Positions 963-34,137 of a stretch of 34,512 nucleotides of DNA are shown piece by piece. The notes under the pieces were generated by a model. The model ran no database searches and was not told the DNA's origin. It saw only the letters and a list, made by a program, of their open reading frames with translations. Every line of letters begins with the position of its first letter. Within the stretch, counting starts at the first letter, position 1. The translations under genes were made by a program, and so were the position numbers. Origin of the DNA: a virus (taxonomy: Duplodnaviria > Caudoviricetes); the IMG/VR virus record IMGVR_UViG_3300037457_000050, positions 1-34,512 of that record; one strand, given 5' to 3'.

Positions 963-992
963 AGCGTAACTGTCACGTCCGAGGATGGTCAA
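963..992 (-). promoter_or_regulatory. Putative sigma70/HrdB-type leftward promoter
   Basis: TTGACC (992-987) N18 TACGCT (968-963) at the end of the HTH gene. Confidence 0.55.
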
Positions 993-1341
993 CTCGGGGC
1001 CTGCGGCGGCGTGTCTCCTGTACCGCCTTCAGGTCGGCGAGCTGGTAGCGCCAGCCGTGGCGGGTCCTCTCACCAGGCAGTCGCCCGGCCAGCCGCAGCC
1101 GGCGGATGTTGGCGGTGGACGTGCACAGCCAGTCGGCGGCCTGCGCCGGGGTGAGCAGCATGTGCTCATCCACAGTCACCACCTGGGGGACCGCCCACGT
1201 TTCGCCGAACTGGACGGCGGTGGCGTCGGCGGTGTCGCACAGGTCCGTCGACAGGGACCGCAGATGCGCCCGGTACATGTGAGCGACGCGGCGGGCGCGA
1301 GTCAGCGGCGCCTCGCCGGGAAACGGCCACCGGCCGGCCAT
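973..1341 (-). CDS. Helix-turn-helix DNA-binding protein (HTH_17/excisionase-like C-terminal domain)
   Basis: LLTPAQAADWLCTSTANIRRLRLAGRLPGER..WRYQLADL motif; ATG with AGGA upstream. Confidence 0.8.
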   Translation of the reverse strand: MAGRWPFPGEAPLTRARRVAHMYRAHLRSLSTDLCDTADATAVQFGETWAVPQVVTVDEHMLLTPAQAADWLCTSTANIRRLRLAGRLPGERTRHGWRYQLADLKAVQETRRRRPRVDHPRT

Positions 1342-1349
1342 CAGGCGTC

Positions 1350-1378
1350 CTGCCCTTCACACGGGTACCGGGTATGAT
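1350..1378 (+). promoter_or_regulatory. Putative leaderless promoter of tnpB
   Basis: CTGCCC (1350-1355) N17 TATGAT (1373-1378), 7 nt before GTG 1386; no RBS. Confidence 0.5.
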
Positions 1379-1385
1379 GTGAGAC

Positions 1386-2492
1386 GTGGGATTTCAGACG
1401 AGGCGGGGATACAAGTACCGCTTCTACCCAACTCCCGAACAGGCGCAGCAACTGAGCCAAACCTTCGGCTGTGTGCGGCTGGTCTACAACAAGGCCCTCG
1501 CCGAGCGGACCCGCATCTACTCCACCGAGCGTCGCGGCACCACCTACGTAGAGACGTCGGCATGGCTGACCAGATGGAAACACAGCCAGGACCTGGGCTT
1601 CCTGAACGAGGTCTCCTGCGTGCCGTTGCAGCAGACCCTGCGGCACCTTCAAGGTGCGTTCGTCGCGTTCTTCTCGAAGCGCAACCGGTACCCACGCTTC
1701 AAGTCCCGCAAGAGGTCCCACGCATCGGCCGAGTACACCCGGTCGGCGTTCCGGTGGCGCGACGGCAGGCTGACCCTGGCGAAGATGGACCAGCCGCTTG
1801 ACATCCGCTGGTCTCGTCCGCTTCCCGAAGGGGCTGAGCCGTCCACGGTGACCGTTTCCCGAGACGCCGCTGGACGCTGGTTCGTGTCCCTGCTGGTGGA
1901 GACCGTGATCGAGCCGCTGGCGTCCACCGACAAGACGGTAGGGGTCGACGCCGGGATCACATCGCTGGTAGCCCTGTCCACCGGGCAGAAGGTGACCAAC
2001 CCGGGCTACGAACGGCGGGATCGACGCAAGCTGGCTCGCGCGCAGCGCAGCATGACCCGCAAGGTAGTCGGCTCGCAGAATCGCACCAAAGCACGTCGCC
2101 GTTTGGCGCGCGTCCACGCGCGCATCGCCGACCGACGCAGGGATCACCTGCACAAGCTCACGACTCGACTCGTCCACGAAAACCAAGTGGTTGTGATCGA
2201 GGATCTGCATGTGCAAGGGATGATGGCCAACCACTCGCTCGCTCGGGCGATATCTGATGCGTCGTGGTCGCTGCTGCGGCAGTTCCTGGAGTACAAGTGC
2301 GAGTGGTACGGCCGCGAGTTGCGTACTGTCGATCGCTGGTACCCGTCGAGCAAGATCTGCTCCACCTGTGGAGTGCTGCAGAAGTCGCTGCCCCTGGATG
2401 TCCGGTCGTGGACCTGTCCATGCGGGGCGGTTCACGACCGGGACGTGAACGCGGCTAAGAACATCCTCGCGGCCGGGCTGGTCGAGAGGTAA
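1386..2492 (+). CDS. tnpB: RNA-guided endonuclease TnpB
   Basis: N-terminal YKYRFYPT..FGCVRLVYNKAL; intact RuvC triad GVDAG / VIEDL / HDRDVNAA; zinc finger CSTC..CPC; 368 aa. Confidence 0.97.
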   Translation: MGFQTRRGYKYRFYPTPEQAQQLSQTFGCVRLVYNKALAERTRIYSTERRGTTYVETSAWLTRWKHSQDLGFLNEVSCVPLQQTLRHLQGAFVAFFSKRNRYPRFKSRKRSHASAEYTRSAFRWRDGRLTLAKMDQPLDIRWSRPLPEGAEPSTVTVSRDAAGRWFVSLLVETVIEPLASTDKTVGVDAGITSLVALSTGQKVTNPGYERRDRRKLARAQRSMTRKVVGSQNRTKARRRLARVHARIADRRRDHLHKLTTRLVHENQVVVIEDLHVQGMMANHSLARAISDASWSLLRQFLEYKCEWYGRELRTVDRWYPSSKICSTCGVLQKSLPLDVRSWTCPCGAVHDRDVNAAKNILAAGLVER

Positions 2493-2608
2493 AACGCCTG
2501 TGGAGGGCCGGTGAGACCCGACCCGCGTATGCGGTGAAGGCGCGGCCTTACGAAGCAGGAATCCGCCTCCTTCAGGTGGTGGAGCGGTCAACCGCTCGTA
2601 TTCGTCGT
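2450..2608 (+). ncRNA. Putative omegaRNA (reRNA): scaffold to 2591 plus flank-derived guide from 2592 (CCGCTCGTATTCGTCGT...)
   Basis: Established TnpB architecture; structured ~100-nt segment between tnpB stop and TCAA right end; 5' boundary approximate. Confidence 0.6.
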
Positions 2609-3526
2609 TCACGAGCATGCGGCCCCCTCGTGCCAGATCACGAGTCGCATCGACCGTTCGTACTCGTCGTAGGGCCGCCACGCGTCGCACTGGTCGCACC
2701 ACACCCGGGGATCGTCACCCCTCTGCCGGGGCTGGTGCTGGCGCAGTGTGCCGTCGCGTAGGCAGCCGTGGCAGGCGCCGGGGAGCTTCCGCACCGGGGA
2801 CGTGAGGCCGACCACCGACCGGGCCAGGTAGTGCAGCCTGCGCAGATGCGCGATGCCGCCGGCGCCGGTGGGGGAGCACACCTCCGTGGTAGTGGCAACG
2901 CCGTGGCGTTCCGGCCCGTGGAGCACCATCCGCGGCAGGTCGTCATCCGCGCCGGCCCAAGGGTATTCGGCCATGTCCGTCTGGCCTACCCGGGCCAGTC
3001 TGCCCAGCCGGGGAGCGATCACCGTGCACGCGGTTTGCACCGCCCGGCCCTCCCGCACCCCGGCCGTCACCTCATCGGATAGCCGGTCCAACTCCCGCAC
3101 CACCGGCTCCCACGCTGTCGCCGTCTGCCAGATGGTCCGCTGCAGCACCAGCACGAACTCGCGCAGCGGCAGCGGATGCTCACCCCGGTCCCGCTTGCCT
3201 GGCTGGCCGTCGGACCACTGGGACAGCGGCTTCGGCAGCCACTGCTCCAGAGCGGCGTAGTCACCCGGCAGCGCCCGCACTTCCCGTTCGGCGACGCGCA
3301 GGCAGTCGGGGCACAGCGGCACCGACGGATCAGCTAGCAGCGTCGCACGTCGCTTGGCCAGGTCGTACTCGGCGCACCGGTCACCGGCCGCGCACCGGCG
3401 AGACGCCACCAGGCCGCAGCCTTCCGACCCGCACCCACCCGGCACCGAACACGGGGCAAACGGAGAAGCGTGGCATTGGCAGTCCACCGGGCAGGCAGAC
3501 GTGACGGTGGGGGTGGCAGCCGGCAT
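2609..3526 (-). CDS. Cys-rich phage protein (several CxxC motifs), possible regulator
   Basis: ATG 3526 after GAGGA; CPDC, CHGC and WCDQC motifs; directly upstream of the HTH gene. Confidence 0.75.
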   Translation of the reverse strand: MPAATPTVTSACPVDCQCHASPFAPCSVPGGCGSEGCGLVASRRCAAGDRCAEYDLAKRRATLLADPSVPLCPDCLRVAEREVRALPGDYAALEQWLPKPLSQWSDGQPGKRDRGEHPLPLREFVLVLQRTIWQTATAWEPVVRELDRLSDEVTAGVREGRAVQTACTVIAPRLGRLARVGQTDMAEYPWAGADDDLPRMVLHGPERHGVATTTEVCSPTGAGGIAHLRRLHYLARSVVGLTSPVRKLPGACHGCLRDGTLRQHQPRQRGDDPRVWCDQCDAWRPYDEYERSMRLVIWHEGAACS

Positions 3527-3608
3527 GGTCGGGTCCTCTTCCGCGGGCAGCTCGCTACGATGGCGGTGAGCTGCCACCACGGGGGACGCGGGGGCGGTTG
3601 TACGCGGA

Positions 3609-3638
3609 CGGCCCGGGGGATAGGAGTACCCCGGGCCG
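3609..3638. terminator. 10-bp perfect inverted repeat in a 180-bp intergenic gap
   Basis: CGGCCCGGGG (3609-3618) / CCCCGGGCCG (3629-3638), 10-nt loop. Confidence 0.45.
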
Positions 3639-3705
3639 CCACGCTTCACAGGCAGACTACAGGCCGGCTGGTAGGCGGTTCTCGCAGCTCACACGGCGTG
3701 TCGGG

Positions 3706-9584: not shown

Positions 9585-11340
9585 CTCCGTCCGGCTCCGG
9601 GCTGCCGGGGACGGGGCGGGTGCCGGCGGGGACCTCGCCCGCCGTGCCTAAGATCCATTCCGGCACGTTGATGCGATCGGACAGTCGGCGTATCTCCGTG
9701 GCGAGCCAGGCGCCGAAGTCGGCGGCGGCGTCCCGGCGGGCGGTGGCCTCGACCTCGGCGAGCCGGTCGACTGGCACCCACGACAGGCGCATGTCCGGGT
9801 TGGTGCGGATCGTTTCCTGCATCCGGGCGATGGTTTCCCGGTCGTACACTCTCCGCTGCTCCAGCCGGTCGCATTCGCTGCGGACGCCGACCAGCTCCTC
9901 CTCCAGCCGGGACACCTCGGCGCGTAGCCGCTCCACATCCCCGGTGGCCCCGGCCAGCCGCACCGCCAGCCGGCTGGACGCCACACGGTAAGACCCCCGG
10001 TCGGCGACCACCACGGCCAGCTCGGCGGTCAGCTTGGCATGGTCGGCAGCCCACTGGCCGGCCAGACTCCGGCGCACCTCGGCCAGCTCCGCGCGAGCGG
10101 CCTCCCGCTCGCCCTCCAGCATCTTCTCCACGCGCACCCCGTGAGCCAAGATGCGCAGGGCAGCATCCAGCTCGCCGCGGGCGGCGTTGCGCTCGGCCAA
10201 CGCATCGTAGAGCTGGGCGCTTCGGACATCCAGTGCCCCGACGTACAGGTCCAAGTCGGCGAGCAGGGCCAGCACCTGATCCCGCAGCTCCCGCCCCCGC
10301 TCCGGGCTGATCAGCTCGGCATCCAACACCTCACCGGCCAACCCGGCGGCGAGTGCGACGATCGTCTTCCGGTCCCATCCGGGGCCGCCGGCCGGCTCGG
10401 CCGGGTGGTTCTCCGGCGGCTCCAGGCATCGCAGGCACGGATCGCCGGTCGGCTTCAACCCACAGCTGTACGGGCCGCGCGCTGCACCGGTTGCCGCCGG
10501 ATGCCACTCGACTGCTGGGACTGTGGCCGGCCGGTCGGCGTCTCCGGCCGGCTGGGCGGGCGCAGCGTCATGCTCAGCTTCCCGCCTGCCGCAGTACGTG
10601 CTGTCCGTTCGGTCGCTGCGATAGGTGCACTCGTCGTCGTCAGGGTGTCCGCTAACTGCCTGGAACTCGTGCCCCAGGGGAAAGTCGAGCCGGACGCAGA
10701 TCGGGTCTGAGTGGTACTGCCCCGCGTCGTTGACCCCACAGCCGCAGTGTGGACTCGCGTGAGAAGCGGCCGGCTGGGCGGGCGCGGCGGGCGGCTCCGG
10801 CTGGTCGGCCCACGGGGTGAGCTCGCCCGTCTCGATCCGGTGCGCGTCGATCTCCAGCGCGCTGGCGCAGACCCGCATGGCGTCCGCCACGTCCGCCTGG
10901 CCGGTGTGCCGCTGGAACTCGGCGGCGTCGCGGAGCTGGCCTGCCTTCCACCGCAGCGCACCGGCCCACACGCGGCGGCACAGCGCATCCTCCAGCACCA
11001 CCACTGGCACCTGCTCGGGCTCCGGCTCCGGACACCACTGGCAGTCGGCGACCGGCCGTTGGCCCCCGTGACGGGCGACGTGCTCCACCAACTGCTCAGC
11101 CGGGGTCGGGGTCACCGGCTGGCCGGCTCGGGGGCCGCTGGCGTGCACCGCCGGGGCCGGGGTCGTAGCGGTCCGGCCGCCGGTCGGCTCGCCCAGCTCC
11201 ACCCCGGACGCCTCGACGGTCGGCGGCGGGGGCGCGGTCACGCCACGCTCGCCACGGTCGAACGCGGCGGCAACGTCATCCGGTCGCTCGTCCGACTCGT
11301 GGAACTCTCCCGGCTGCGGGGTCGGGTCGGTGGCGGTCAT
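9565..11340 (-). CDS. Large mosaic protein with Pro/Ala linkers, Cys/His modules and C-terminal coiled coil
   Basis: ATG 11340 in ATGA overlap with GAGGAG RBS; 591 aa. Confidence 0.75.
   Translation of the reverse strand: MTATDPTPQPGEFHESDERPDDVAAAFDRGERGVTAPPPPTVEASGVELGEPTGGRTATTPAPAVHASGPRAGQPVTPTPAEQLVEHVARHGGQRPVADCQWCPEPEPEQVPVVVLEDALCRRVWAGALRWKAGQLRDAAEFQRHTGQADVADAMRVCASALEIDAHRIETGELTPWADQPEPPAAPAQPAASHASPHCGCGVNDAGQYHSDPICVRLDFPLGHEFQAVSGHPDDDECTYRSDRTDSTYCGRREAEHDAAPAQPAGDADRPATVPAVEWHPAATGAARGPYSCGLKPTGDPCLRCLEPPENHPAEPAGGPGWDRKTIVALAAGLAGEVLDAELISPERGRELRDQVLALLADLDLYVGALDVRSAQLYDALAERNAARGELDAALRILAHGVRVEKMLEGEREAARAELAEVRRSLAGQWAADHAKLTAELAVVVADRGSYRVASSRLAVRLAGATGDVERLRAEVSRLEEELVGVRSECDRLEQRRVYDRETIARMQETIRTNPDMRLSWVPVDRLAEVEATARRDAAADFGAWLATEIRRLSDRINVPEWILGTAGEVPAGTRPVPGSPEPDGGGDDAG
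10545..10785. repeat. 19-bp direct repeat flanking an in-frame module
   Basis: CGGCCGGCTGGGCGGGCGC at 10545-10563 and 10767-10785, 222 bp apart. Confidence 0.8.
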
Positions 11341-13015: not shown

Positions 13016-13175
13016 CGGCTTCCACCTCTCGCGTCAAAGTCGTGTCCCTGCTATCGACCGGTGCCGCGACGGGCTGGGCAGCCGGGCAGTCCGGGCAGTC
13101 GCACGGCACCCCGGGTTCGCACCCCACTCGGACTAGGAAGTCGTTGGCCAGCCACGTCTCACAGACCACCATCAC
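13002..13175 (-). CDS. Small hypothetical protein
   Basis: GTGA overlap with the primase stop; GGAGG RBS; CDCPDC. Confidence 0.55.
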   Translation of the reverse strand: MMVVCETWLANDFLVRVGCEPGVPCDCPDCPAAQPVAAPVDSRDTTLTREVEADAWS

Positions 13176-14785
13176 AGCCCTCCCCCATCCGGAACGCCGA
13201 GCGCCCACTTCCACGGCCAGTCATGCGGATCGCCGTAGGTCAGAAACCCCGGCCAGTTCCGGTCATCCCGGCCGCCCCGCCACGGCACCACCTCAACGTC
13301 GATCGGACGGCCACCGATCATGCGCGGCGGGTCTCCGGCGGGCCGAATCCCGAGGCCGAACTCGGGCCAGCGCAGCAGCAAGCTGGACCCGGCGGGACGG
13401 ACCTGCCGCTTTAGGCCAGACTCGCCATGCCCGGCGTGTGCCTCGGTGACCAGCGCGCAGTCCACGGCGGTCCGCACCCGGTCGAGAACGGCAACGACCC
13501 TCCGGGCCGGCAGCTCATCGTTCATGTTTGCGTTATGGAGCCGGTAAAACGGGCCGATGAACAGCACGTCCGGCCGGTGGGCGGTGACCCGTTCCATGAG
13601 CCAGTTCTCCCACTCGTCACGGGTCAGGTCGACGCCCTCGGGCTTGTGGATCAGGCGTAGACCACCGCCCGGGACCCGGTGCTGGTGCTTGATCGACGCT
13701 GCCGCTAGTGGACGGAACTTGCGGCGTGACTGGCGGACCGAGTTTTCGCAGTCAATGAACAGCACCCGGTGCGGACGGCACTCGCCGTGCCGGTGCCAGT
13801 AGAACGGGTGCAGCCCGGCGGCGATCATCACCGCCATCTGCCGCGTGACCATGCTCTTGCCCAGACCCTCGAACCCGGTCAAGATCAACCGGTCTCCCCG
13901 TTCCAGAATGTCCGGAACGATCCAGTCGTACGCCTCGTCTGGGGTGGCGATGAACTCCCACAGGTCTGGCGCCAAGTCAGGCTTGGCCTCTTCCTCGCTG
14001 GAAAAGGTCTGCTCCAGCTCGGCGAGGCTGTGTCCCGCAGCAACGTGGTCCGTTGCGTCCTTGCCCGCCCTGGCCTCGACGATGTAGACCGCGCCCACCA
14101 ACCCGAGCAGCGCGTCGCGGACCTTTCTGGCGTGCGCCCGGCCCGGGTCGTCCCGGTCGGCGACGATCGTCACCACCGCCGCGCCCTTCAGCATGTCGCT
14201 GTATTCGTCCCGCCACTTGCCGGCGCCGCCCGGGTTGCAGGTGGCGACCAGGCCGTGCCGCTCCAGCGTGTGGACGTCCTTCTCGCCCTCACACAGGTAC
14301 ACTTCACGGCCCTCAGCGACCGCCGCCAGCACTAGCGGCAAGCGGTACAGGACGCGTCGGATATCGCCGAGCTTCCACGCCCAACCGCCCTTGGCCGACG
14401 GGTCCGGGACCCGCTGGCGGAAGTCTTTGTTTGCGGTCCGGCACACCTGGAACAGCAGCTCGCCGTTCTCGTCGCGGTAGTCGTAGACCGCGACCGCCGG
14501 CCCGGCGGGTGTCCAGTCGTCGCTGCCGTTGCTGGACTGGTCACGCGGTTTGGACAGGTCTTCCCAGGTCAGACCGAGCGCGGTTAGCACGTCCCGCGGG
14601 TCGCAGCCGGCCTGGCAGTGGAACACCACCGGGTGCTTCTCGCCGGGGCCGATGGTCAGGCTCGCGGTGTGGTCTTCGTGGGCCGGACACCGGACCACGA
14701 AGCCAGCCCCGGACCGGCGGACCGAGTGAAACTTCGGGAGGACGATCTCCCGTAGCGGGTCAGCGGGGATCAATTGTCCCACCAC
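13172..14785 (-). CDS. Bifunctional DNA primase (Zn finger + TOPRIM) / AAA_25 RepA-type helicase
   Basis: CPAHEDHTASL..FHCQAGC; LCEGEKD..ADRDDPG; Walker A GFEGLGKS; VLFIDCEN; GAGGA RBS before GTG 14785. Confidence 0.9.
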   Translation of the reverse strand: MVGQLIPADPLREIVLPKFHSVRRSGAGFVVRCPAHEDHTASLTIGPGEKHPVVFHCQAGCDPRDVLTALGLTWEDLSKPRDQSSNGSDDWTPAGPAVAVYDYRDENGELLFQVCRTANKDFRQRVPDPSAKGGWAWKLGDIRRVLYRLPLVLAAVAEGREVYLCEGEKDVHTLERHGLVATCNPGGAGKWRDEYSDMLKGAAVVTIVADRDDPGRAHARKVRDALLGLVGAVYIVEARAGKDATDHVAAGHSLAELEQTFSSEEEAKPDLAPDLWEFIATPDEAYDWIVPDILERGDRLILTGFEGLGKSMVTRQMAVMIAAGLHPFYWHRHGECRPHRVLFIDCENSVRQSRRKFRPLAAASIKHQHRVPGGGLRLIHKPEGVDLTRDEWENWLMERVTAHRPDVLFIGPFYRLHNANMNDELPARRVVAVLDRVRTAVDCALVTEAHAGHGESGLKRQVRPAGSSLLLRWPEFGLGIRPAGDPPRMIGGRPIDVEVVPWRGGRDDRNWPGFLTYGDPHDWPWKWALGVPDGGGL

Positions 14786-15723
14786 CCGGATTCCTCGGGG
14801 GCCGTGGCGGGAGCCGGTTCGTCGGCCCACCGCTCGCCGTTGATCCATCCCTGCGCCATCTTGACCTTCGAGGGCTCGGTCTGCTCGCGGCGCATCCGCT
14901 GGGCGTAGCGGGCAGCGCCTGCGATCATCACGTCCGGGTCGATCTTCTTCTTCACGACCGCGGCCACGAACGCCTTGCGGGCGTCCGCCTTGCCATCTCT
15001 GCGCGGGAAGGCGGTCCAGAACTCGACCCACTTCGGATCTTCGTCGCTGCCTACCGCCGGTGCCTTGATCGGCTGGCCGTCGAGCAGTAGGCCGCCGGCT
15101 TCGACGTGGCCTGGTGGAGATGTATTGGGGGAAGGGGATTCGGGGATCGGGGAGTCACTACTCCCTCTCCGTACCACTCCCCGTTCCCCGGGAGTGCCGG
15201 TCGAAGGGTTCCCGGAAGGGGTGGCGGAAGGGTTCCCGGAAGGGTTCGCCCGCCCCTCCGGGTAGGGGTTCCCTATGGCCTCAAGCATCTGGGCGATGAT
15301 CGGCCCGGAGTCTTTCGGCATCTCCAGCTTCTGGATCCGCCGCAGCTCCTCGGCGAGCACGAAGCGGATCGACCGGCTACGAACGGTCGGCAACGTGTCG
15401 GCAGCTGACCGCAGTACGTTGGGCTGCCGGAACACCTTGTCCCGCCTGATCAGCGCCCTGACCAACAGCTCCTCGGTGTCGAAGTCCAGAACCACCTTCT
15501 CCGCCGCCACCAGCTCCTCCAGGTCCGCCAATACTTCGGCCTCAGTCAGGTCAGCCGCGGCGCTGGCCCACCGCCGCATCCGCAGCCCGAGCACGCCCGT
15601 GTGCGCCAAGTCCGGCTGCGACAGGAGGAAGAAGTACGTCCCCTGCGCCCGCCGGGTCAGCCCGGTGAAGTCCGAGTCAACATCCCAGATGTCCACGGTG
15701 ATCCGTGCCTCGCTACGTGCCAC
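14770..15723 (-). CDS. Phage replication initiator-like protein with internal iteron array
   Basis: N-terminal MAR..RI..DIW..DF..L...AQ..YFFLLSQPDL; repeat linker; C-terminal FWTAFPRRDGKADARKAF..WINGERWADE; AGGAG RBS. Confidence 0.75.
   Translation of the reverse strand: MARSEARITVDIWDVDSDFTGLTRRAQGTYFFLLSQPDLAHTGVLGLRMRRWASAAADLTEAEVLADLEELVAAEKVVLDFDTEELLVRALIRRDKVFRQPNVLRSAADTLPTVRSRSIRFVLAEELRRIQKLEMPKDSGPIIAQMLEAIGNPYPEGRANPSGNPSATPSGNPSTGTPGERGVVRRGSSDSPIPESPSPNTSPPGHVEAGGLLLDGQPIKAPAVGSDEDPKWVEFWTAFPRRDGKADARKAFVAAVVKKKIDPDVMIAGAARYAQRMRREQTEPSKVKMAQGWINGERWADEPAPATAPEESGWWDN
15203..15274. repeat. 12-bp tandem iteron-like repeats (putative origin)
   Basis: GAAGGGTTCCCG / GAAGGGGTGGCG / GAAGGGTTCCCG / GAAGGGTTCGCC, then a degenerate copy at 15263-15274. 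Confidence 0.75.
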
Positions 15724-18094: not shown

Positions 18095-18557
18095 GCGGGA
18101 CCACCACCTTGATCGGGTGTACCTGCGGGTCGTAGCCGGCCCGCCGAGCCCGGCGCAGGAAATCGCCCGTGCCGGAGTCGTCGCCCCGCTGGTCCACGAA
18201 CGTGACCACGAAGTCCGCCCGCGGCTTGAGGTCGGCGAGGCGCTGGTTACGGCGCCAGCCGGCCCGCGGGCAGTAGTCCCTCCCGTCCCGGCGCTTCTTG
18301 CGGTGCGGCCAGTCCGGGCAGCCACCCCGGTCCTCCGGCACCGTCAGGTCACACTCGCCCCAGCGGGCCGGCACCGGCTTGACCTGCCAGCCCCACGTCC
18401 GGGCGCAGCCGGCGGCGATGCGGTCCACGCCGGCCGCGTCACCATGGGCAAGCACCCCGAGGTCCCGTCGGCACACCGCCAGCAGTACCGGTCCGATGAC
18501 CTCGATGTGCTGCTCCTCCGTCGCATAGCGAGACCCGCTGCAAATCACCCTGATCAT
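18087..18557 (-). CDS. SLOG-family (DUF2493/YspA-like) protein
   Basis: RVICSGSR..HGDAAGVDRIA..AGWRRNQRL..SGTGD motifs; TGATG overlap. Confidence 0.85.
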   Translation of the reverse strand: MIRVICSGSRYATEEQHIEVIGPVLLAVCRRDLGVLAHGDAAGVDRIAAGCARTWGWQVKPVPARWGECDLTVPEDRGGCPDWPHRKKRRDGRDYCPRAGWRRNQRLADLKPRADFVVTFVDQRGDDSGTGDFLRRARRAGYDPQVHPIKVVVPHG

Positions 18558-19279
18558 CAACGCCCCCGCAGCTTGGCGCTTCTCGCGGCCATGCGCAGAC
18601 GCTGGCACGAGCGGCAGTTTCGTGACCCGTCGCGCCGGCGGTAGGTGTTGGCCTCGTCGTACGGATGCCCCTTCGGGCAATGCGTGACGCGGGCAACCGC
18701 CCGTTCCCGGTTAACCTTTCCCGTCACCGGCTCAAGGTGATCCGGGTTGACACACCTCCTGTGCCGACAGCCCGGCCCTCCGCGGCAAGAGTGGTCATCA
18801 GAGTGGCACCGGTGATCCAACTGCATGCCACGCGGGACCGCACCCTTCGTGAGCGTAAACAGAGCACTGTGTGCGAACACGTTCCTGCCGCCCAGCCACG
18901 CCACACCGTAGCCGTTGTCCATCGTGGTGCCCTGCCATACCCAGCAGCCGGATGGTTCCCGATGGACGAATGCCATGAGTCGCACCATCGGGTCAGCTCC
19001 GCGGTTGGTGTTAGCCCGAAGCCCCTGCTTTCGCAGGTAGCCGTAGACGTAGGACGGCTTGCATCCAACCTTCCGGGCTATCTCTGCGCTCCCGAGCCCG
19101 TCAGCGTGGGCAGCGAGTATCGCCTTGCGCAGCCGCTCACGATCGCCTGGGTCCATCAGCACTTGGACCTTGGGCAAAGATCCGTTCCTGCGCTGGACGG
19201 CGTGACACGTCTTGCAGTGGTCCCGAGCGTGGAACTCCTTCAGTTCGCCACAACCGGCACACTTGATGATCCGCAGCAT
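18557..19279 (-). CDS. HNH endonuclease with N-terminal Zn finger and HTH
   Basis: CWVWQG..GYG..AH..LDHRC..CVNPDHLEPVT..N; THCPKGHPYDEANTY..CRSC; lower GC than neighbours. Confidence 0.9.
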   Translation of the reverse strand: MLRIIKCAGCGELKEFHARDHCKTCHAVQRRNGSLPKVQVLMDPGDRERLRKAILAAHADGLGSAEIARKVGCKPSYVYGYLRKQGLRANTNRGADPMVRLMAFVHREPSGCWVWQGTTMDNGYGVAWLGGRNVFAHSALFTLTKGAVPRGMQLDHRCHSDDHSCRGGPGCRHRRCVNPDHLEPVTGKVNRERAVARVTHCPKGHPYDEANTYRRRDGSRNCRSCQRLRMAARSAKLRGR

Positions 19280-19485
19280 CAGCCCGCCCCCCCGTCGGTC
19301 TCGGGCATGGTCGCCACCAACCCGGCCGGTGTCTGCCGCACCACCGCGCCCTGCCCAGGACACGGCGGCTGCCGCGCCGGGTCGCGCCGATGCCACGGCA
19401 CCACCTCCCCGTACAACCCGGTCAGCGCGATACGCCGGCGACACACCGGGCACTCCACCGTGGGCACTTCTGGGATCAGGCTCAC
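19279..19485 (-). CDS. Small zinc-ribbon protein
   Basis: PTVECPVC..H..CPGQG; GTGA overlap; GAGG RBS. Confidence 0.6.
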   Translation of the reverse strand: MSLIPEVPTVECPVCRRRIALTGLYGEVVPWHRRDPARQPPCPGQGAVVRQTPAGLVATMPETDGGAG

Positions 19486-19934
19486 CGGGCAGCCACCTCT
19501 CCGCCAGCAGGAATCGATGAGCGGGTCGGCACCACGTACCCGGCGGCAACGTCCAGGAGCACATCGGCGTGGCACATGCGGATGTCTGCGCGTCGGGTGG
19601 GCAGTGGGCACCAGCACGCCAGGTCCCGGCCGGCCAGCTCCGCCTGGATCTCCTCCACCGACGGATAGGCGTGCGCGATCCGGCCGTTGAGCAGGTCCCA
19701 CTCGAAGAACTTCGCCGCGAAGTAGCGGGCGGTCTCCAGCAGCGCGTACGACGGGCCGTCGTTGAGGTCTGTCGGGCTGCCGTGGACCCGGTACATCCGA
19801 GTCCACGGCCACCGGTCCAGCCGCTCCGGCGTGATCCGGATCGGATTACCCCACCTCGATGGGCGCGAGACCACCACCGCGCCCGGCGGTTTGCGCCAGC
19901 CACGCTGGCGCCGAAGCTGGATCCGCTCAGGCAT
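19482..19934 (-). CDS. DUF4326 domain protein
   Basis: RIQLRR..GWRKP.GAVVVSRPSRWGNP..LAGRDLACWC..CHADVL. Confidence 0.9.
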   Translation of the reverse strand: MPERIQLRRQRGWRKPPGAVVVSRPSRWGNPIRITPERLDRWPWTRMYRVHGSPTDLNDGPSYALLETARYFAAKFFEWDLLNGRIAHAYPSVEEIQAELAGRDLACWCPLPTRRADIRMCHADVLLDVAAGYVVPTRSSIPAGGEVAAR

Positions 19935-20466
19935 CCGCCACCTCCCCCAGTTGGGTGGCCACTCGGGCGGCCACGTCCGGCGGGAGGGTCCACACCTTCT
20001 GGAACCCCCGGCATGGCACCGGCTCCGGGACCACAACCGGGTCGGACAGGCGCCAGTGGGCCAGCCCGCCGTTGCCGCCCATCGCCCACCGGGAACACTG
20101 GTACGGCCCGTCCGGGTGCAAGTCGCCGTACTTGCCGCGCAGACACGCGCTTGACCAGTGGCTGTCCACCAGGGTCACCCGGGCGATGACGGCACCAAGC
20201 GGGTAGAAGTCCGGGTCCCGCGGGAACGCGCCGCCCGCCAGGTCAGCCGCTGTGCGGAACCCGTCGCTGTCCCACCGCTTGCCAGCGTGAATGTACAGCG
20301 GCCCGCCGCGGACATCCCGCGACGGCGTCCACGGCCGGTTCTCGATGTCTTTCAGGCCGAGGGCGATCAGCGTCGCCCAGGGCTGCCAGACGGTGAGCGC
20401 CGGGAACCGCTCCGGTGTGCCGGGTTCCACCCCGGCCGGCCGCTCCAGCGTGGTGACCCCGCTCAC
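19927..20466 (-). CDS. ASCH domain protein
   Basis: ALTVWQPWATLIALGLKDIENR.W..LYIHAGK. Confidence 0.9.
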   Translation of the reverse strand: MSGVTTLERPAGVEPGTPERFPALTVWQPWATLIALGLKDIENRPWTPSRDVRGGPLYIHAGKRWDSDGFRTAADLAGGAFPRDPDFYPLGAVIARVTLVDSHWSSACLRGKYGDLHPDGPYQCSRWAMGGNGGLAHWRLSDPVVVPEPVPCRGFQKVWTLPPDVAARVATQLGEVADA

Positions 20467-21011: not shown

Positions 21012-21256
21012 CGCTGCCCCTCCCCGGCTACGGCTGGCGCACCATGCGCCAGCGCCTCCACCACCCGCTCGGCCACATGCCGCTCCGACCCCCGCAACGC
21101 GTCCTTATAGCCGGATGGCCCCCCGCTACGGCTGCCGCACATGCACACCCATCGCCAGCGCTCTCCAGCCGGATCGGTGCCGAAGTCCCGTTGGACACTC
21201 AGCCGGTGCACGGCCAGCACGTCGGCGACCAGATCCACACTCGGCTCAGCCGACAC
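21008..21256 (-). CDS. Hypothetical protein
   Basis: VLAVH..CMCG..HVAE motif; GGAGG RBS. Confidence 0.65.
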   Translation of the reverse strand: MSAEPSVDLVADVLAVHRLSVQRDFGTDPAGERWRWVCMCGSRSGGPSGYKDALRGSERHVAERVVEALAHGAPAVAGEGQR

Positions 21257-21845
21257 GGGACACCTCCCGCGGGTACTCCCGGACCTGGAGATCCGGCGGG
21301 AACGCCTCGATGTCGTGGTGGTGCCTGCCCTTCGATTGATCGCTCAGGCCCACCCATTTCTCTCCTCGTCGGATCTTCTGGATGGTGACGTGGCTGACGC
21401 CATAGGAACGCCCGACGACACGAGACGAACGCACATCGGCCCGGATCGCCTCGACCTGGCGCCAGCTCAGCCGAGCGCTCGCGCACTGGTCGCCGCGCGG
21501 CTGGGTGCCGTGTCGTGCGCGGTCAGCAGCCTGTTCGTACCGGTCCCCCCAAGCAAGGTTCGACAACCTGTTGTCCGAAGGGTTGCCGTTCAGGTGGCGA
21601 ACCTCTTGGTGCGGCGGACACGGACCAACGAACGCTTCGAGGACAGCCCGGTGAGCCCACAGCTTGAGGTTCCGGCGGACACCCTTCGCGCCGGCCCCCC
21701 GGCGGTACGTGACGATGTAGAAGTACCCATCGGCGGTAACCTGCGGCTTGCGCGGCCCCTGTGGACCAGCGATCAGACCGGTGGTGCTGACCCGATAGCC
21801 GGGGCGTCCGGGCACGTCGGCCCACTCGATTGCGGTGTCAGCCAC
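21246..21845 (-). CDS. HNH endonuclease (NUMOD4-like, HNH_3, HTH) with DUF5131/Gp37-Gp68-like termini
   Basis: AHRAVLEAFVGPCP..VRHLNGNPSDNRLSNLAWG; termini MADTAIEWAD and FPPDLQVREYP. Confidence 0.85.
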   Translation of the reverse strand: MADTAIEWADVPGRPGYRVSTTGLIAGPQGPRKPQVTADGYFYIVTYRRGAGAKGVRRNLKLWAHRAVLEAFVGPCPPHQEVRHLNGNPSDNRLSNLAWGDRYEQAADRARHGTQPRGDQCASARLSWRQVEAIRADVRSSRVVGRSYGVSHVTIQKIRRGEKWVGLSDQSKGRHHHDIEAFPPDLQVREYPREVSRVG

Positions 21846-25864: not shown

Positions 25865-26381
25865 CGCCGGCCACCTCCCCCTCGGCGTCGAAGTCGGGCG
25901 GCGGCAGGTGCAGCGACACGGCTACCAGGTCCAGCACCCGGCCGGCCGCCTCCGCTGCTGCTTCCCGGGCCGGCGTCTCCGGGGTGAAGGTCACCGAGCC
26001 CGGGTTGCCACCCGGGCGGACCTCCATGCCCGGGATCACCGTCCCGTCCCGATCGGTGACCACGTCGCCCTCGATGCGGGCGCCGTCCCGCAGCGCCTTG
26101 ACGAAGGCGGGACGGACCCGCAGCTCCACCTCATTCGGCCGGGTCAGGCTGACCCACTTCGCCAACGCCTCGTGGTCGGTCACCACTGGCGCGGTCTTCG
26201 ACACCGGCAGGAACACCAGCCCAACCTCGGGCGACCGCCACGACGGGGCGGTGCCCTGCTCGGTGAACTCCGCCGTGGCGTCGGCCTGCAACTGCCGGCG
26301 GAACGCCGCCGCCCGGGCGGTGGCCTGCTCTGCCACCCGCTCCCACAGCAGGATGTGCCGGATCACATCTGCCCGGTTCAT
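25848..26381 (-). CDS. Hypothetical protein next to the recombination ATPase
   Basis: ATGA overlap; VTDRDGTVIPGMEV motif. Confidence 0.75.
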   Translation of the reverse strand: MNRADVIRHILLWERVAEQATARAAAFRRQLQADATAEFTEQGTAPSWRSPEVGLVFLPVSKTAPVVTDHEALAKWVSLTRPNEVELRVRPAFVKALRDGARIEGDVVTDRDGTVIPGMEVRPGGNPGSVTFTPETPAREAAAEAAGRVLDLVAVSLHLPPPDFDAEGEVAGDDVDA

Positions 26382-30859: not shown

Positions 30860-31136
30860 GGTCGTCTCCTCCTCTGCGGATGGTCGGCCACCAGCCGGCC
30901 GGGCTGGTCAGCACTGACCGGAGCCGGTCAGCCGGCGGGCGGCAGGCACCGGTGTGCGGCCGGCGGCGGCGGCCCCGGTAGCGGGGCAGCTCCACCGTGT
31001 CCGGGGTGAACAGCGGGTCGCCCTGGTCGTCCTGGTCGGCCCGGTGCTGCCGGGAGTCGGCCCACGCCCAGGCGCCGACGGCGAACAGGCCCGCGGTGAG
31101 CACACACACGGCGGACAGGACCACCCACAGCATCAC
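30852..31136 (-). CDS. Single-TM membrane protein
   Basis: N-terminal hydrophobic helix; GTGA overlap. Confidence 0.65.
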   Translation of the reverse strand: MMLWVVLSAVCVLTAGLFAVGAWAWADSRQHRADQDDQGDPLFTPDTVELPRYRGRRRRPHTGACRPPADRLRSVLTSPAGWWPTIRRGGDDRG

Positions 31137-33952
31137 CGGCCCACCCCCGCCAGGTCGATGCCGGTGATGGCCTCAGCCACCGCTGCGATCAGGTCGCGGG
31201 CGGCTGGCGGGGTGACTGCGTTGCCGAGCATCCGGGTCCGCTCCCGCTTGTTGCCCAGCAGCACGAACTGTGGCGCGAACGCCATACCGGCCTTGATCTC
31301 GTGCACGTCGAGCATCCGGAACGTGCAGTCCTCCACCGCCACCGCGGTACCCAGCAACGCGTCGCCCTGCACGGTGGTCTGCGTCGGCATCGGCTCGGCA
31401 AGCGGGCGCAGATCCCCGGTGTCGTAGCCGTAGAGCACGTGGTCCCACCGGATCAGCGTCTGTTTGCTCTCCGCCAGGATCGTCCGCAGCGGCTGGTTCA
31501 CCGGGGTAGACATCTGCCCTTGGTCGCCGCGGGCGGTCAGGTTCCGCATCACCAGGGCGTGGTGATAGCCGCCGGCTGCCAATGTCACCAGCGGATGCTC
31601 GCCGGCTGGTCTGGCGTTTCCGTTGCGGCGCAGCGGCACCACCAGGGCGTCCTGTAGCCGGGCCGTCTGCGCTCTCGCCGGGCCGGTCACCGGGCGGGCA
31701 TGCACGTTCTCGCGGCCCTCCACCGGCACCAGCAGCGGGTCGACCAGGGCGTGGTTGGACCCGTCGGCAACCACGGTGGCCATCGGGTGATCGACGCCGA
31801 TCGTCCGTGGCCGGCCCGACCGCAGCACGGTCAGAAACGGGCTGACCACGGCGTCGTTGTCCGTGGCCGTGCGGGTGGCCATCGGCCGGTCAACCGTCTG
31901 GGCTTCCCGGCGCCGGGCCCCGCCAGCCGGCACCAGCAGCGGCGTGGCCAGTCCGTGGTGCCCGCCACCGGCGGAGACGGTGTGCAGCGGCTCGTCGACA
32001 CCCTGGGTGCCTGCGTTCGTCCGCATGACCGCCAGGAACGAGGCCGTACCGTTCCCGTTGGCGGCCGGCCGCGAGTAGCGAACCAGCCCGGCCTTTATGC
32101 GGGCCAGGGTCTTCGGCTTCAGCGGCCTGGCCCGGTCGCCGATCCGCTCCGCCGGCAGCAACCAGTCGATCGCGGACGCTGCCGGAAGGATGTACGGCCG
32201 CACCACCGCGTTCTCGCAGCTGGTCGACGGGCAGCGGTAGACGTATTGGGAGCCGTAGCGCATCGGCCGCCGCGGACCCGGCTTCGGCGCGTACACCGCC
32301 CGTACGTCCACATCGCACACCGGGCAGCGGGCCAGTGGACGGGTCCACCGGTCCAGATCCGGCGCCTTGTACCGGGACTGCCAGAACACGACATACACCC
32401 GGTCCCGAAGCTGCGGCGCCGGCGCGCCGAGCTGGTGAGCGAACGCGGAGTTGACGGTGACCACCCGGTGCCGGTAGCCGAGCTTGTGCATCTCGCCCAG
32501 CCACCGGTCGAACTCGGCCCACTTCAGGATGTCCGGCACGTTCTCCACCACCACCGCCTTGTACCGGTGGTACCGGCTGAACCGGGGCACGTCCTCCATC
32601 TGCACCCGCGACCGCTGCACCGCCTCGGGCGGCAACGGCTCGTCGAACAGACCCGGCTGGCCCGCGTAGTCGGTACGCTCCCCGCGGGCCACGGACCAGG
32701 TGGTGCAGTTGTGGACGACGATGCCGTCCGCGACGAACGAGTGGTCCTCCTCCACGGTCAGGTCGTAGACCAGTGTCATATCGCTGGCCGGCCTGATCGA
32801 CTTGACCGGCGCCCACGTGTGCATCGGTGTAGCAACGGTGCTTGGCCGCTTCTGCTCGTACAGCCACACCACGGTCCACTGCGGGCGCGCTCGGCCGGTG
32901 CGACCGTCAATCCTCCACGTGTCACGGTGCTGATATTGCAGCTGGGTTCGGTGACCGAGGGACTCGGCTAGCAACCGAACTCCGAGGGCGAGGCTCTTGG
33001 AGACGGAGGCGGCCCGCCACTCGCGGCCGTCGTTGTAGCCGTCGGCCGACAGGTACCCATCAAGCAGTGCGCGCCGCCACGCCTGCGGCGCACCAAGCAC
33101 CCATGCTGGAACGGTCTTCCCGTGGGCGCGGTGCCCGAAGTGCCGTACAAGCCATTGCGCGAGTTCGGAATGGCTGTTGGCAAACGCCACCGCGGTCCGA
33201 AGCTGACGGCGTGACCAGGTCAGCTCCGGCGCGCACTGATCGCAGTCGTGGTGCACCCATGACAGGGCTTTCGCTAGATCATCGGCCTCATGGTTGCCGC
33301 AAGTAACGAAGGTCTCGTCGTTGCCGTTCGGTCGGACACGAAGGGAACCGTCACCGAGCCACCGCCCAACGAACCAGGCGAACCGCGGATCATCCACGTG
33401 AAGCGGGCGACGGCCACCGATCCTGGGAACGTCCGAGTCGGGGAACAGGTTAGGCGTGGCCCACAGCGCGGTCCCGTCAGCCGGAACGTCGCCGACGTTC
33501 ACCCACTGGGGCGAAGCTCCGTCGGTACGGACCCAGATCGGATGGTTGGCTGTAACCTCGATCCCGCGCGTGTTGCCGTGGCCGCCGAGTAAGACGGTGG
33601 GTGCTTGGCGGCTCATCGTGTTGGTGACGCGTCGGTATCGGCCAACGTGCGTCAGAACACGGTCGCCGGTGTTGACGTTCTGGATCGGGACCAAGCCACG
33701 TTCGGTCAGGACGAGCGTCCCGGCCGCGAAGCACTCCGGGCTGAACCAGCCGATGTCAGTGGACGGGTAGCGCCGCGGGTCGGCCACGGTCACATCGATC
33801 ACGTCGTGATCCACATGGGGCATGTTGGTGTTGTGGACCTCGATCGCCAGCGCCCAGTGGTTGATCGCGTATCTCACCCGGACGCCAGGTACCAGCTCCG
33901 CGCCGGAGGACGAACCGCCCGCGCCACAATAAAAATCCATCACGGTCAGCAC
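31133..33952 (-). CDS. DNA (cytosine-5) methyltransferase with intein
   Basis: Motif I DFYCGAGG; motif IV SPE|C; VVENV; QLRDRVY; motif X LGNAVTPP; start GTG 33952 or ATG 33940. Confidence 0.95.
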   Translation of the reverse strand: MLTVMDFYCGAGGSSSGAELVPGVRVRYAINHWALAIEVHNTNMPHVDHDVIDVTVADPRRYPSTDIGWFSPECFAAGTLVLTERGLVPIQNVNTGDRVLTHVGRYRRVTNTMSRQAPTVLLGGHGNTRGIEVTANHPIWVRTDGASPQWVNVGDVPADGTALWATPNLFPDSDVPRIGGRRPLHVDDPRFAWFVGRWLGDGSLRVRPNGNDETFVTCGNHEADDLAKALSWVHHDCDQCAPELTWSRRQLRTAVAFANSHSELAQWLVRHFGHRAHGKTVPAWVLGAPQAWRRALLDGYLSADGYNDGREWRAASVSKSLALGVRLLAESLGHRTQLQYQHRDTWRIDGRTGRARPQWTVVWLYEQKRPSTVATPMHTWAPVKSIRPASDMTLVYDLTVEEDHSFVADGIVVHNCTTWSVARGERTDYAGQPGLFDEPLPPEAVQRSRVQMEDVPRFSRYHRYKAVVVENVPDILKWAEFDRWLGEMHKLGYRHRVVTVNSAFAHQLGAPAPQLRDRVYVVFWQSRYKAPDLDRWTRPLARCPVCDVDVRAVYAPKPGPRRPMRYGSQYVYRCPSTSCENAVVRPYILPAASAIDWLLPAERIGDRARPLKPKTLARIKAGLVRYSRPAANGNGTASFLAVMRTNAGTQGVDEPLHTVSAGGGHHGLATPLLVPAGGARRREAQTVDRPMATRTATDNDAVVSPFLTVLRSGRPRTIGVDHPMATVVADGSNHALVDPLLVPVEGRENVHARPVTGPARAQTARLQDALVVPLRRNGNARPAGEHPLVTLAAGGYHHALVMRNLTARGDQGQMSTPVNQPLRTILAESKQTLIRWDHVLYGYDTGDLRPLAEPMPTQTTVQGDALLGTAVAVEDCTFRMLDVHEIKAGMAFAPQFVLLGNKRERTRMLGNAVTPPAARDLIAAVAEAITGIDLAGVGR
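31355..32040 (-). repeat. About seven degenerate 30-35 aa repeats in the MTase variable region
   Basis: VDEPLHTV..HHGL / VDRPMATR / VDHPMATV..NHAL / VTGPARAQT / EHPLVTL..HHAL / VNQPLRTI / LAEPMPTQT. Confidence 0.7.
32708..33733 (-). mobile_element. Intein (342 aa) with LAGLIDADG homing endonuclease
   Basis: Starts CFAAGTLVLT; block B IEVTANHPIW; WFVGRWLGDGS and LLDGYLSADG; ends VYDLTVEEDHSFVADGIVVHN followed by Cys. Confidence 0.95.
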
Positions 33953-34137
33953 CCGCCCACCCCCGCCGGTTGGCGGGGCCAGCACATCTCCGCGGCCTGC
34001 CGCATCCCGCCCCGGCCCATCCGCCACATCCGGTGCCCCAACACCCGGCCGCCGCGGCCAGTCGGCGCCGGTCCGCCGCACTCCGGGCACTCAACCGTGG
34101 GCAGGGTCGCGGCGGTCAAGGGGTGCACCCTTGCCAC
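33946..34137 (-). CDS. Small zinc-ribbon protein
   Basis: PTVECPECG..H..C, similar to 19279..19485; start uncertain. Confidence 0.5.
   Translation of the reverse strand: MARVHPLTAATLPTVECPECGGPAPTGRGGRVLGHRMWRMGRGGMRQAAEMCWPRQPAGVGGC

What the first reader, a model, noticed from the sequence alone, without database searches (positions are those of the whole stretch)
2592..2670. TnpB guide has a synonymously recoded twin 62 bp away with a scrambled TAM
Seen: the predicted guide CCGCTCGTATTCGTCGT (2592-2608) matches CCGTTCGTACTCGTCGT (2654-2670) at 15/17. Both encode DEYER on the minus strand, and both mismatches are synonymous third positions (GAA/GAG swaps). Upstream of the twin is CATCGA, versus CATCAG at the insertion site, so the TAM reads TCGA rather than TCAG. 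Inference: the resident Cys-rich gene may be a cleavage-immune allele while the guide targets the conserved YDEYERLM-coding allele of related phages, as free-standing homing endonucleases do. An old tandem duplication or a recombination scar is also possible.
Basis: partly seen in the sequence, partly recalled or inferred. Interest (0 to 1): 0.72.

Follow-up and report, generated by a model that had tools for sequence, protein, structure and literature searches.

The report
Phage TnpB with self-immune target gene
A sediment phage carries an intact-looking RNA-guided nuclease gene (TnpB) whose predicted guide matches the end of the neighbouring gene, while the phage's working copy of that gene end lacks the short motif the nuclease likely needs; the cassette would therefore spare itself and could cut and convert related phages, but no cutting has been shown.

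Summary
The 15/17 repeat is real and not chance. The TAM is likely TCAT, not TCAG: 8 of 13 close TnpB elements begin after TCAT. The TCAG at 1341-1344 is the ordinary stop/start overlap of two phage genes. The element's left-end hairpin is missing.

Four relatives without tnpB at this site have a single YDEYER site. The nearest joins 1350 to 2631 and reads YDEYER-MM, which forces TCAT directly before the protospacer (7 of 13 homologues do). The window alone has Ser (TCG), giving TCGA. The two synonymous differences are ordinary family variation.

Best reading: an IS605-type element inserted at YDEYER|MM. The 17-nt guide and a 14-nt left remnant are the severed gene end, and a second, TAM-less gene end restores the gene. 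This is the layout of an RNA-guided free-standing homing endonuclease.

Against: no relative with readable DNA shows TAM plus a perfect seed, the cassette was seen in one phage only, and expression and cleavage are untested. This scan has noted the same layout in eight other findings on other DNA.

The parts
973..1341 (-). HTH gene (122 aa); left homology arm
   Evidence: PF12728 E 2e-5, just under its cut-off; phrog_1969 E 1.4e-18; identical protein on a 100,218-bp contig; X2 contig has 14 other letters over 867-1350
1341..1354 (-). Left remnant of the original Cys-rich gene end, reading (W)QDA-stop; its TGA overlaps the HTH start codon.
   Evidence: Sequence; family tails WQDV, WQGA, WQGV; aligns with the tails of L001, L002 and L090; differs from X2 at 1344, 1345 and 1348
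1355..1385 (+). Retained tnpB upstream region (likely promoter and leaderless start); IS left-end hairpin absent
   Evidence: The last ~14 nt match the conserved motif just before the start codon in L100, L003, L101 and L102. The hairpin found 84-141 nt upstream in close relatives is missing. The promoter role is inference; the consensus scan found no promoter
1386..2492 (+). tnpB, 368 aa; RuvC D188/E272/D353 and zinc-finger cysteines intact
   Evidence: NF040570 361.9 bits against cut-off 100; NF038281 380 against cut-off 425, not met; Pfam PF12323, PF01385, PF07282 all above cut-off; residues
2492..2591 (+). omegaRNA scaffold and IS right end (GAAT-hairpin-TCAA); one 22-nt stem is missing, as in L006 and L023
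   Evidence: Covariance model from relatives only: 66.3 bits, E 4.4e-15; L006 scores 60.8; L023 has the same gap; right-end register conserved
2592..2608 (+). Predicted 17-nt guide; inferred to be the severed (Y)DEYER piece of the original gene
   Evidence: Directly after TCAA; 15/17 to the twin, L001 and L090, 14/17 to L002; homology ends exactly at the Cys-rich gene's stop codon, 2609-2611
2609..2653 (-). Second (replacement) gene end, SMRLVIWHEGAACS-stop; the Ser codon makes the TAM position (2650-2653) read TCGA
   Evidence: Ser in 0 of 13 homologues with the motif; 2616-2700 matches the gene end of G002 at 75%; X2 skips 1351-2630
2654..2670 (+). Twin protospacer in the working gene; mismatches at guide positions 4 and 10
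   Evidence: identical 17-mer in tnpB-free L090
2609..3526 (-). Cys-rich gene of unknown function; right homology arm
   Evidence: phrog_1467 and phrog_1568; no Pfam hit; 444 homologues at E<=0.001; DUF7341 lead only; X2 has 47 other letters over 2631-3704

Best explanation
This is likely an immobilised IS605-type TnpB/omegaRNA cassette whose predicted guide is the severed end of the neighbouring Cys-rich gene, next to a likely borrowed gene end that lacks the predicted TAM, so it would spare its own genome and would cut and convert tnpB-free related phages as a free-standing homing endonuclease does. Steps: (1, inferred) an element with TAM TCAT inserted antisense at YDEYER|MM, the family's TCAT site. 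(2, absence shown, deletion inferred) the left-end hairpin, the TAM and about 19 nt of gene end were lost, leaving (W)QDA-stop beside the HTH start. (3, inferred) a second gene end from another family member restored the gene; its stop codon abuts the 17-nt guide and its Ser codon turns TCAT into TCGA. The order of steps 2 and 3 is unknown. (4, predicted) in co-infection TnpB cuts TCAT alleles 15-21 nt into the protospacer, and repair from the donor across arms that are 96-97% identical to the nearest relative copies the 1.28-kb cassette with the immune gene end.
For: TAM: 8 of 13 distinct TnpB elements at 62-72% identity have TCAT just before the left-end sequence; paired copies (L104/L106, L105/L107) become alike at TTCAT, and L100/L003 and L101/L102 share the register. 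The four closest (L004, L100, L101, L099=L102; 69-72%) match the window at 6 of the 7 positions aligned to ISDra2's TAM contacts (C78 versus S at the K76 position), and all four show TCAT (contacts from PMC10097598 passages). Family site: YDEYER-MM forces TCAT immediately before the protospacer in 7 of 13 homologues, including the nearest tnpB-free relatives P0038 and P0039; seen directly in the DNA of L002 and L090; Ser in 0 of 13. No duplication in 4 of 4 relatives; X2 joins 1350 to 2631. Two family-type gene ends in the window, (W)QDA* and WHEGAACS*. The window differs from P0038 at 2 of the first 237 residues but 3 of the next 22 (Fisher p=0.005, boundary chosen after looking), as expected for a borrowed end. 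Nuclease and scaffold intact. In each of three complete related phages the Cys-rich site is the best or joint-best TAM+12 match.
Against: No relative with readable DNA has TCAT plus a perfect seed: L090 has TCAT with mismatches at 4 and 10, L002 has TCAT with mismatches at 3, 4 and 10, and L001 has TCAG with mismatches at 10 and 16. X2 has TCAT by its protein and appears to share the position-10 mismatch, since no difference was listed at 2663; its position 4 could not be read. For ISDra2, adjacent double mismatches in positions 1-12 abolish cleavage (PMC10097598). An exact TAM+15 scan of IMG/VR gave 4 hits, none in this gene family. The cassette was seen only in this contig and its likely source run X1, so spread is not shown. 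The TAM is inferred from relatives at most 72% identical, and the tree gives the window no supported clade. Loss of the TAM can be selected simply to avoid self-cutting, with no benefit against rivals.
Confidence: 0.55

Rival explanations
1. Passive rescue scar. The history is the same (insertion at YDEYER|MM, left-end loss, repair with a TAM-less gene end), but the TAM-less end was kept only because a TCAT end would be self-cut. The guide has since drifted from circulating alleles and the cassette does not spread.
For: All TCAT alleles with readable DNA carry two or three seed mismatches; one carrier only; no tnpA in this 36%-complete contig.
Against: Intact RuvC, zinc finger and scaffold despite loss of the left end. 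The position-10 mismatch would be a rU:dG wobble (inference), so an X2-type allele could be nearly fully paired. TnpB-driven spread without TnpA is reported in plasmids (PMC11870625 abstract; PMC13565253 section 6.1).
Confidence: 0.3
2. Tandem duplication of the gene end inside one genome, IS insertion in the distal copy, then an escape mutation (to TCG) in the working copy.
For: Head-to-tail order with 62-nt spacing; the unique Ser fits an escape mutation.
Against: The two ends differ in length and sequence (WHEGAACS* versus (W)QDA*), and each resembles different family members. No duplication in 4 of 4 relatives. TCG differs by 2 nt from both ATG and CTG.
Confidence: 0.08
3. A foreign cassette (tnpB plus 39 bp of unrelated flank) inserted at a 4-nt microhomology; the twin is simply the native site and the match reflects an earlier insertion in another gene.
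For: X2 can be written as a clean 1,280-nt skip with 4 letters fitting both sides.
Against: The supposedly foreign 2609-2630 is a family-type gene end, the left side carries a second family-type end, and the guide begins exactly where the family has TCAT.
Confidence: 0.05
4. Chance similarity.
For: GC-rich window with other short repeats.
Against: 0.1% background rate, exact register with the right end, the stop codon and the family's TCAT.
Confidence: 0.02

Closest known systems
IS200/IS605 TnpB-omegaRNA (ISDra2, PDB 8H1J/8BF8; Geobacillus ISGst) in restorative homing
   Same: Same nuclease family (E 8e-65 to 8H1J), right-end-encoded scaffold, guide taken from the flank, TAM predicted from left ends. 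[quoted passage not shown]
   Different: Left-end hairpin and TAM are lost, so excision is not expected and the target is not the element's own empty donor joint. The genome holds a second, TAM-less copy of the protospacer in a working gene.
TnpA-independent TnpB gene drive in plasmids (PMC11870625; 'non-restorative homing' in PMC13565253 section 6.1)
   Same: Cleavage of the orthologous empty site in a co-resident replicon (abstract; section read).
   Different: There self and non-self differ by presence of the IS. Here self-immunity also needs a sequence change in a restored neighbouring gene.
Free-standing phage homing endonucleases, intronless homing (T4 SegF, SegB)
   Same: Nuclease gene beside a conserved target gene; self and non-self told apart by sequence substitutions; flanks co-converted (PMC13565253 sections 3.2 and 6.1).
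   Different: Those recognise DNA by protein; this one would be RNA-guided and derived from an IS. The passages read list substitution-based intronless homing for classical endonucleases, not for TnpB.
TldR (nuclease-dead TnpB repressors)
   Same: Phage-borne TnpB derivative with a guide matching a gene (search listing and abstract start only).
   Different: All three RuvC catalytic residues are intact here.

Membership tests
IS200/IS605 TnpB nuclease | HTH + OrfB_IS605 + zinc-finger domains; guided_TnpB HMM | tested here: met
   (NF040570 361.9 > 100)
IS200/IS605 TnpB nuclease | NF038281 IS200_TnpB curated cut-off | tested here: not met
   380.2 < 425; narrower model
IS200/IS605 TnpB nuclease | RuvC D/E/D intact | tested here: met
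   D188, E272, D353
IS200/IS605 TnpB nuclease | omegaRNA scaffold ending at the right end | tested here: met
   66.3 bits, E 4.4e-15, model from relatives only; one stem missing, as in L006 and L023
IS200/IS605 TnpB nuclease | RNA-guided, TAM-dependent cleavage | not testable with these tools
   Needs a bench assay
Mobile IS200/IS605 element | Left-end hairpin with abutting TAM | tested here: not met
   Hairpin present in L100, L003, L101-L107; absent in the window
Mobile IS200/IS605 element | tnpA in the element or genome | tested here: inconclusive
   0 of 1 record matches PF01797, but the contig is 36% complete
Mobile IS200/IS605 element | Empty allele is the precise TAM-guide joint | tested here: not met
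   The nearest tnpB-free relative also lacks 2592-2630; the TCAG-guide joint has no family hit
Free-standing homing endonuclease (works like) | Nuclease absent at the orthologous site of relatives | tested here: met
   4 of 4; G002 has two other tnpB genes elsewhere
Free-standing homing endonuclease (works like) | Self allele lacks the recognition site | tested here: met
   TCGA plus 2 mismatches; rests on the inferred TAM
Free-standing homing endonuclease (works like) | Relatives carry a cleavable site | tested here: inconclusive
   TAM present in 7 of 13 proteins; seed mismatches in all alleles with readable DNA
Free-standing homing endonuclease (works like) | Co-conversion tract or spread among lineages | tested here: inconclusive
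   Differences cluster at the cassette edges (p=0.005 and 0.011, post hoc); one carrier only
Free-standing homing endonuclease (works like) | Biased inheritance in co-infection | not testable with these tools
   No cultured phage or host
TldR repressor | Inactivated RuvC | tested here: not met

The most novel reading that the evidence does not exclude
A natural RNA-guided free-standing homing endonuclease: a TnpB that has lost its transposon left end, is fixed beside a conserved phage gene, carries a TAM-less immune end of that gene, and drives itself through related phages by cutting their YDEYER-MM allele. With the other cases in this scan, this would be a recurrent route from IS elements to phage-versus-phage gene drives.
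Probability: 0.4. Interest if true: 0.8.

Novelty: new variant of a known kind. Interest (0 to 1): 0.58.

Why it matters
If active, it links two known systems: TnpB restorative homing and the substitution-based intronless homing of T4-type free-standing endonucleases. It would show how an IS nuclease can outlast loss of its transposon end and persist beside a conserved gene. This case is easy to test: the TAM comes independently from IS relatives, it falls on a site forced by two Met codons, the resident allele has a unique TAM-breaking codon, and a 96-97% identical tnpB-free relative exists. The layout is not unique within this scan. I did not find it described for TnpB in seven literature searches; those cover open-licence PMC and bioRxiv only, and supplements were not read.

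Tried and rejected
TCAG as TAM or insertion site: rejected. Exact search for the TCAG-type empty joint in IMG/VR gave 1 hit, in an unrelated small HTH gene. Exact search for 21 nt spanning the guide and its flank gave 0 hits. TCAT plus 15 guide letters gave 4 hits, none homologous to either flanking gene. A degenerate YDEYER-MM pattern gave 2 hits, the records of L090 and L002. My first reading, a foreign 39-bp flank (notes), was dropped. Rfam at gathering thresholds: 0 hits. Single-sequence folding of 2470-2611 was no better than shuffles (z -0.02); the covariance model is the informative test. Promoter scan: none. Cys-rich gene: no hit in the phages collection, in viral contigs with the single protein or in genome contigs; HTH gene: none in genome contigs. 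The eight metagenome loci L082-L089 are distant (36-44%) and none has TCAT at the site. Of 149 distant homologues, 13 have a DEYER-like motif and none is followed by M, L or S. No RNA holder listed. No paper held TnpB, TCAT and TAM as whole words. The TnpB tree left the window unresolved in an open 15-row group. The DNA of the 100,218-bp contig and full letters of the X2 contig could not be obtained.

Full report
OBSERVATION. The window is one 34,512-bp virus record, 36% complete. A 368-aa tnpB lies at 1386-2492 (+) between an HTH gene (1341-973, minus) and a Cys-rich gene (3526-2609, minus). The 17-mer after the right end (2592-2608) matches 2654-2670 at 15 of 17; both mismatches are third positions of Glu codons. 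Only 33 of 34,292 start positions in the window have such a close partner within 100 nt. A covariance model built from 14 relatives, without the window, places the omegaRNA scaffold at 2492-2591 (66.3 bits, E 4.4e-15). It lacks one 22-nt stem, as L006 and L023 do. RuvC residues D188, E272 and D353 are intact.

RELATIVES WITHOUT THE CASSETTE. L001, L002 and L090 have one YDEYER site, and their gene ends YDEYER-[LM]M...WQG.-stop overlap the HTH start. G001 and G003 have no tnpB; G002 has two elsewhere. The nearest relative is a 3,669-bp contig in run X2, with 14 other letters over 867-1350 and 47 over 2631-3704. It joins 1350 to 2631 and skips 1,280 nt, so it lacks both the IS and 2592-2630. X1 may be the source of the window and is not independent. 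The duplication therefore exists only with tnpB, in 4 of 4 comparisons.

THE TAM. These letters are the antisense of C-TGA with the overlapping HTH ATG. X2 reads TCAC there, and tnpB-free L090 has CATCAG at its own junction. Close TnpB relatives carry a left-end hairpin starting 84-141 nt upstream of the start codon; the window keeps only about 31 nt. Among 13 distinct elements at 62-72% identity (paired copies counted once; L111 dropped as 5'-truncated), 8 have TCAT just before the left end. L109 appears to have TTAT, L134 TGAC, L005 shows no TCAT, and L007 and L066 have no recognisable left end. Copies L104/L106 and L105/L107 become alike at TTCAT. ISDra2's TAM contacts are Y52, S56, K76, F77, Q80, T123 and N124 (PMC10097598, passages). 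By the alignment these map to Y54, S58, C78, V79, Q82, T118 and R119. The four closest relatives match at all but C78 (S) and all show TCAT. The TAM is thus likely TCAT; this is inference, and the tree gives the window no supported clade.

WHAT THAT DOES TO THE SITE. Met has one codon, so YDEYER-MM always puts TCAT directly before the protospacer. Of 13 homologues with the motif, 7 read MM, 5 read L-x, 1 reads MV and none has Ser (P0013 lacks the motif and P0014 was not aligned; P0038 and P0039 are near-identical). The window alone reads SM, giving TCGA. The twin 17-mer occurs unchanged in L090 behind TCAT, so the synonymous differences are ordinary variation and the TAM codon is the specific change.

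ANATOMY. On the minus strand the order is: working gene ending YDEYERSMRLVIWHEGAACS-stop; immediately the 17-nt (Y)DEYER guide; the element; a 14-nt (W)QDA-stop remnant; HTH start. Both ends fit the family's tails (WQDV, WQGA, WHGA, WQEG, WQGAA), and 2616-2700 aligns to G002's gene end at 75%. The simplest history is insertion at YDEYER|MM, loss of the left end with about 19 nt of gene, and repair with a second gene end lacking the TAM. The wording 'severed end supplies the guide, borrowed end restores the gene' came from e1-5653444; I tested it on this locus only. Differences from the nearest relative cluster in the last codons (2 of 237 versus 3 of 22 residues, p=0.005; 11 of 160 versus 11 of 477 nt, p=0.011). 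The boundaries were chosen after looking and the nucleotide test compares two genes, so this is suggestive only.

HOW IT WOULD WORK. ISDra2 TnpB cuts 15-21 nt from the TAM (PMC10097598), and Geobacillus TnpB is highly sensitive to TAM changes (bioRxiv 2023.03.14.532601, passages). The resident gene would be spared. A co-infecting TCAT phage would be cut within the YDEYER region and repaired from the donor, copying cassette and immune end together. This matches intronless homing as reviewed in PMC13565253 (passages and section 6.1). TnpB drive of IS+ plasmids is reported in PMC11870625 (abstract), and the review states it does not need TnpA.

AGAINST. Every allele whose DNA I could read is imperfect: L090 (TCAT; mismatches 4, 10), L002 (TCAT; 3, 4, 10), L001 (TCAG; 10, 16). 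X2 appears to share the position-10 mismatch; 6 of its 11 differences in 2631-2790 were not listed, and position 4 is unknown. Position 10 would be a rU:dG wobble and position 4 a true mismatch (inference). Adjacent double mismatches in positions 1-12 abolish ISDra2 cleavage. The cassette was seen in one phage only. A passive rescue scar, in which the TAM-less end was kept only to avoid self-cutting, explains the same anatomy (0.30).

TARGET GENE. Function unknown: PHROG 1467 and 1568, DUF7341 as a weak lead. In L001 the Cys-rich/HTH pair lies just upstream of terminase-like ORFs (recognised by eye, not scanned), which suggests a late-gene regulator (inference). An HTH homologue at 69% is named from Micromonospora, hinting at an actinobacterial host.

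KNOWN VERSUS NEW. The protein is a TnpB. The element fails two tests for a mobile IS605 element (left end; precise empty joint) and is not a TldR. It works like a free-standing homing endonuclease, with cleavage and spread unshown. Seven paper searches returned no description of this layout for TnpB. I read passages of PMC13565253, PMC10097598, bioRxiv 2023.03.14.532601, PMC10691335 and 10.64898/2026.02.14.705889, and the abstract of PMC11870625; no supplements. This scan has eight earlier findings of the same layout on other genomes; they are unchecked notes and not independent support. Verdict: new variant of a known kind, interest 0.58; novel case probability 0.4, interest 0.8.

Noticed in passing
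window 1341-2702 (-): A 453-codon open frame runs antisense through the whole tnpB, from the guide's DEYER in frame to the QDA-stop remnant. This may reflect GC-rich codon bias; a cyanophage paper reports a translated antisense ORF on tnpB (10.64898/2026.02.14.705889, passages).
   Followed up: no
window 2588-2603: The guide locus itself is TCAA plus a perfect guide match, so the nuclease must tell TCAA from its TAM at the last base. This makes TCAG alleles (L001) doubtful targets.
   Followed up: partly
L134 (G002:C1:109539-113624) and L135: The related phage G002 carries two other tnpB genes. L134 (64%) has an intact left-end hairpin, apparently after TGAC, with different TAM-contact residues.
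   Followed up: partly
L003 right flank, after 4231: The flank after the right end begins with a short tandem repeat (CAGGGCAGGAACTCCT twice).
   Followed up: no
L104, L107 right ends: The right-end hairpin is interrupted at the same point in two Streptomyces plasmids, followed by similar sequence, possibly another IS.
   Followed up: no
L007, L066 upstream of tnpB: Two other viral tnpB relatives also lack a recognisable left-end hairpin; not checked for a duplicated target.
   Followed up: no
window 31133-34090 (-): 985-aa ORF that looks like a DNA cytosine methyltransferase with an intein (…YCG…FSPE-CFAAGTLV…IVVHN-C…), by eye; not scanned.
   Followed up: no
window 13172-15031, 18557-20146, 21246-21845 (-): ORFs resembling a primase-helicase and two HNH endonucleases, by eye; not scanned.
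   Followed up: no
window 3449-3510: A second patch of divergence from X2 at the N-terminus of the Cys-rich gene, with a 6-nt indel.
   Followed up: no
window 15199-15250, 21022-21145, 10009-10095, 26244-26335: Other short near-identical direct repeats within 100 nt.
   Followed up: no
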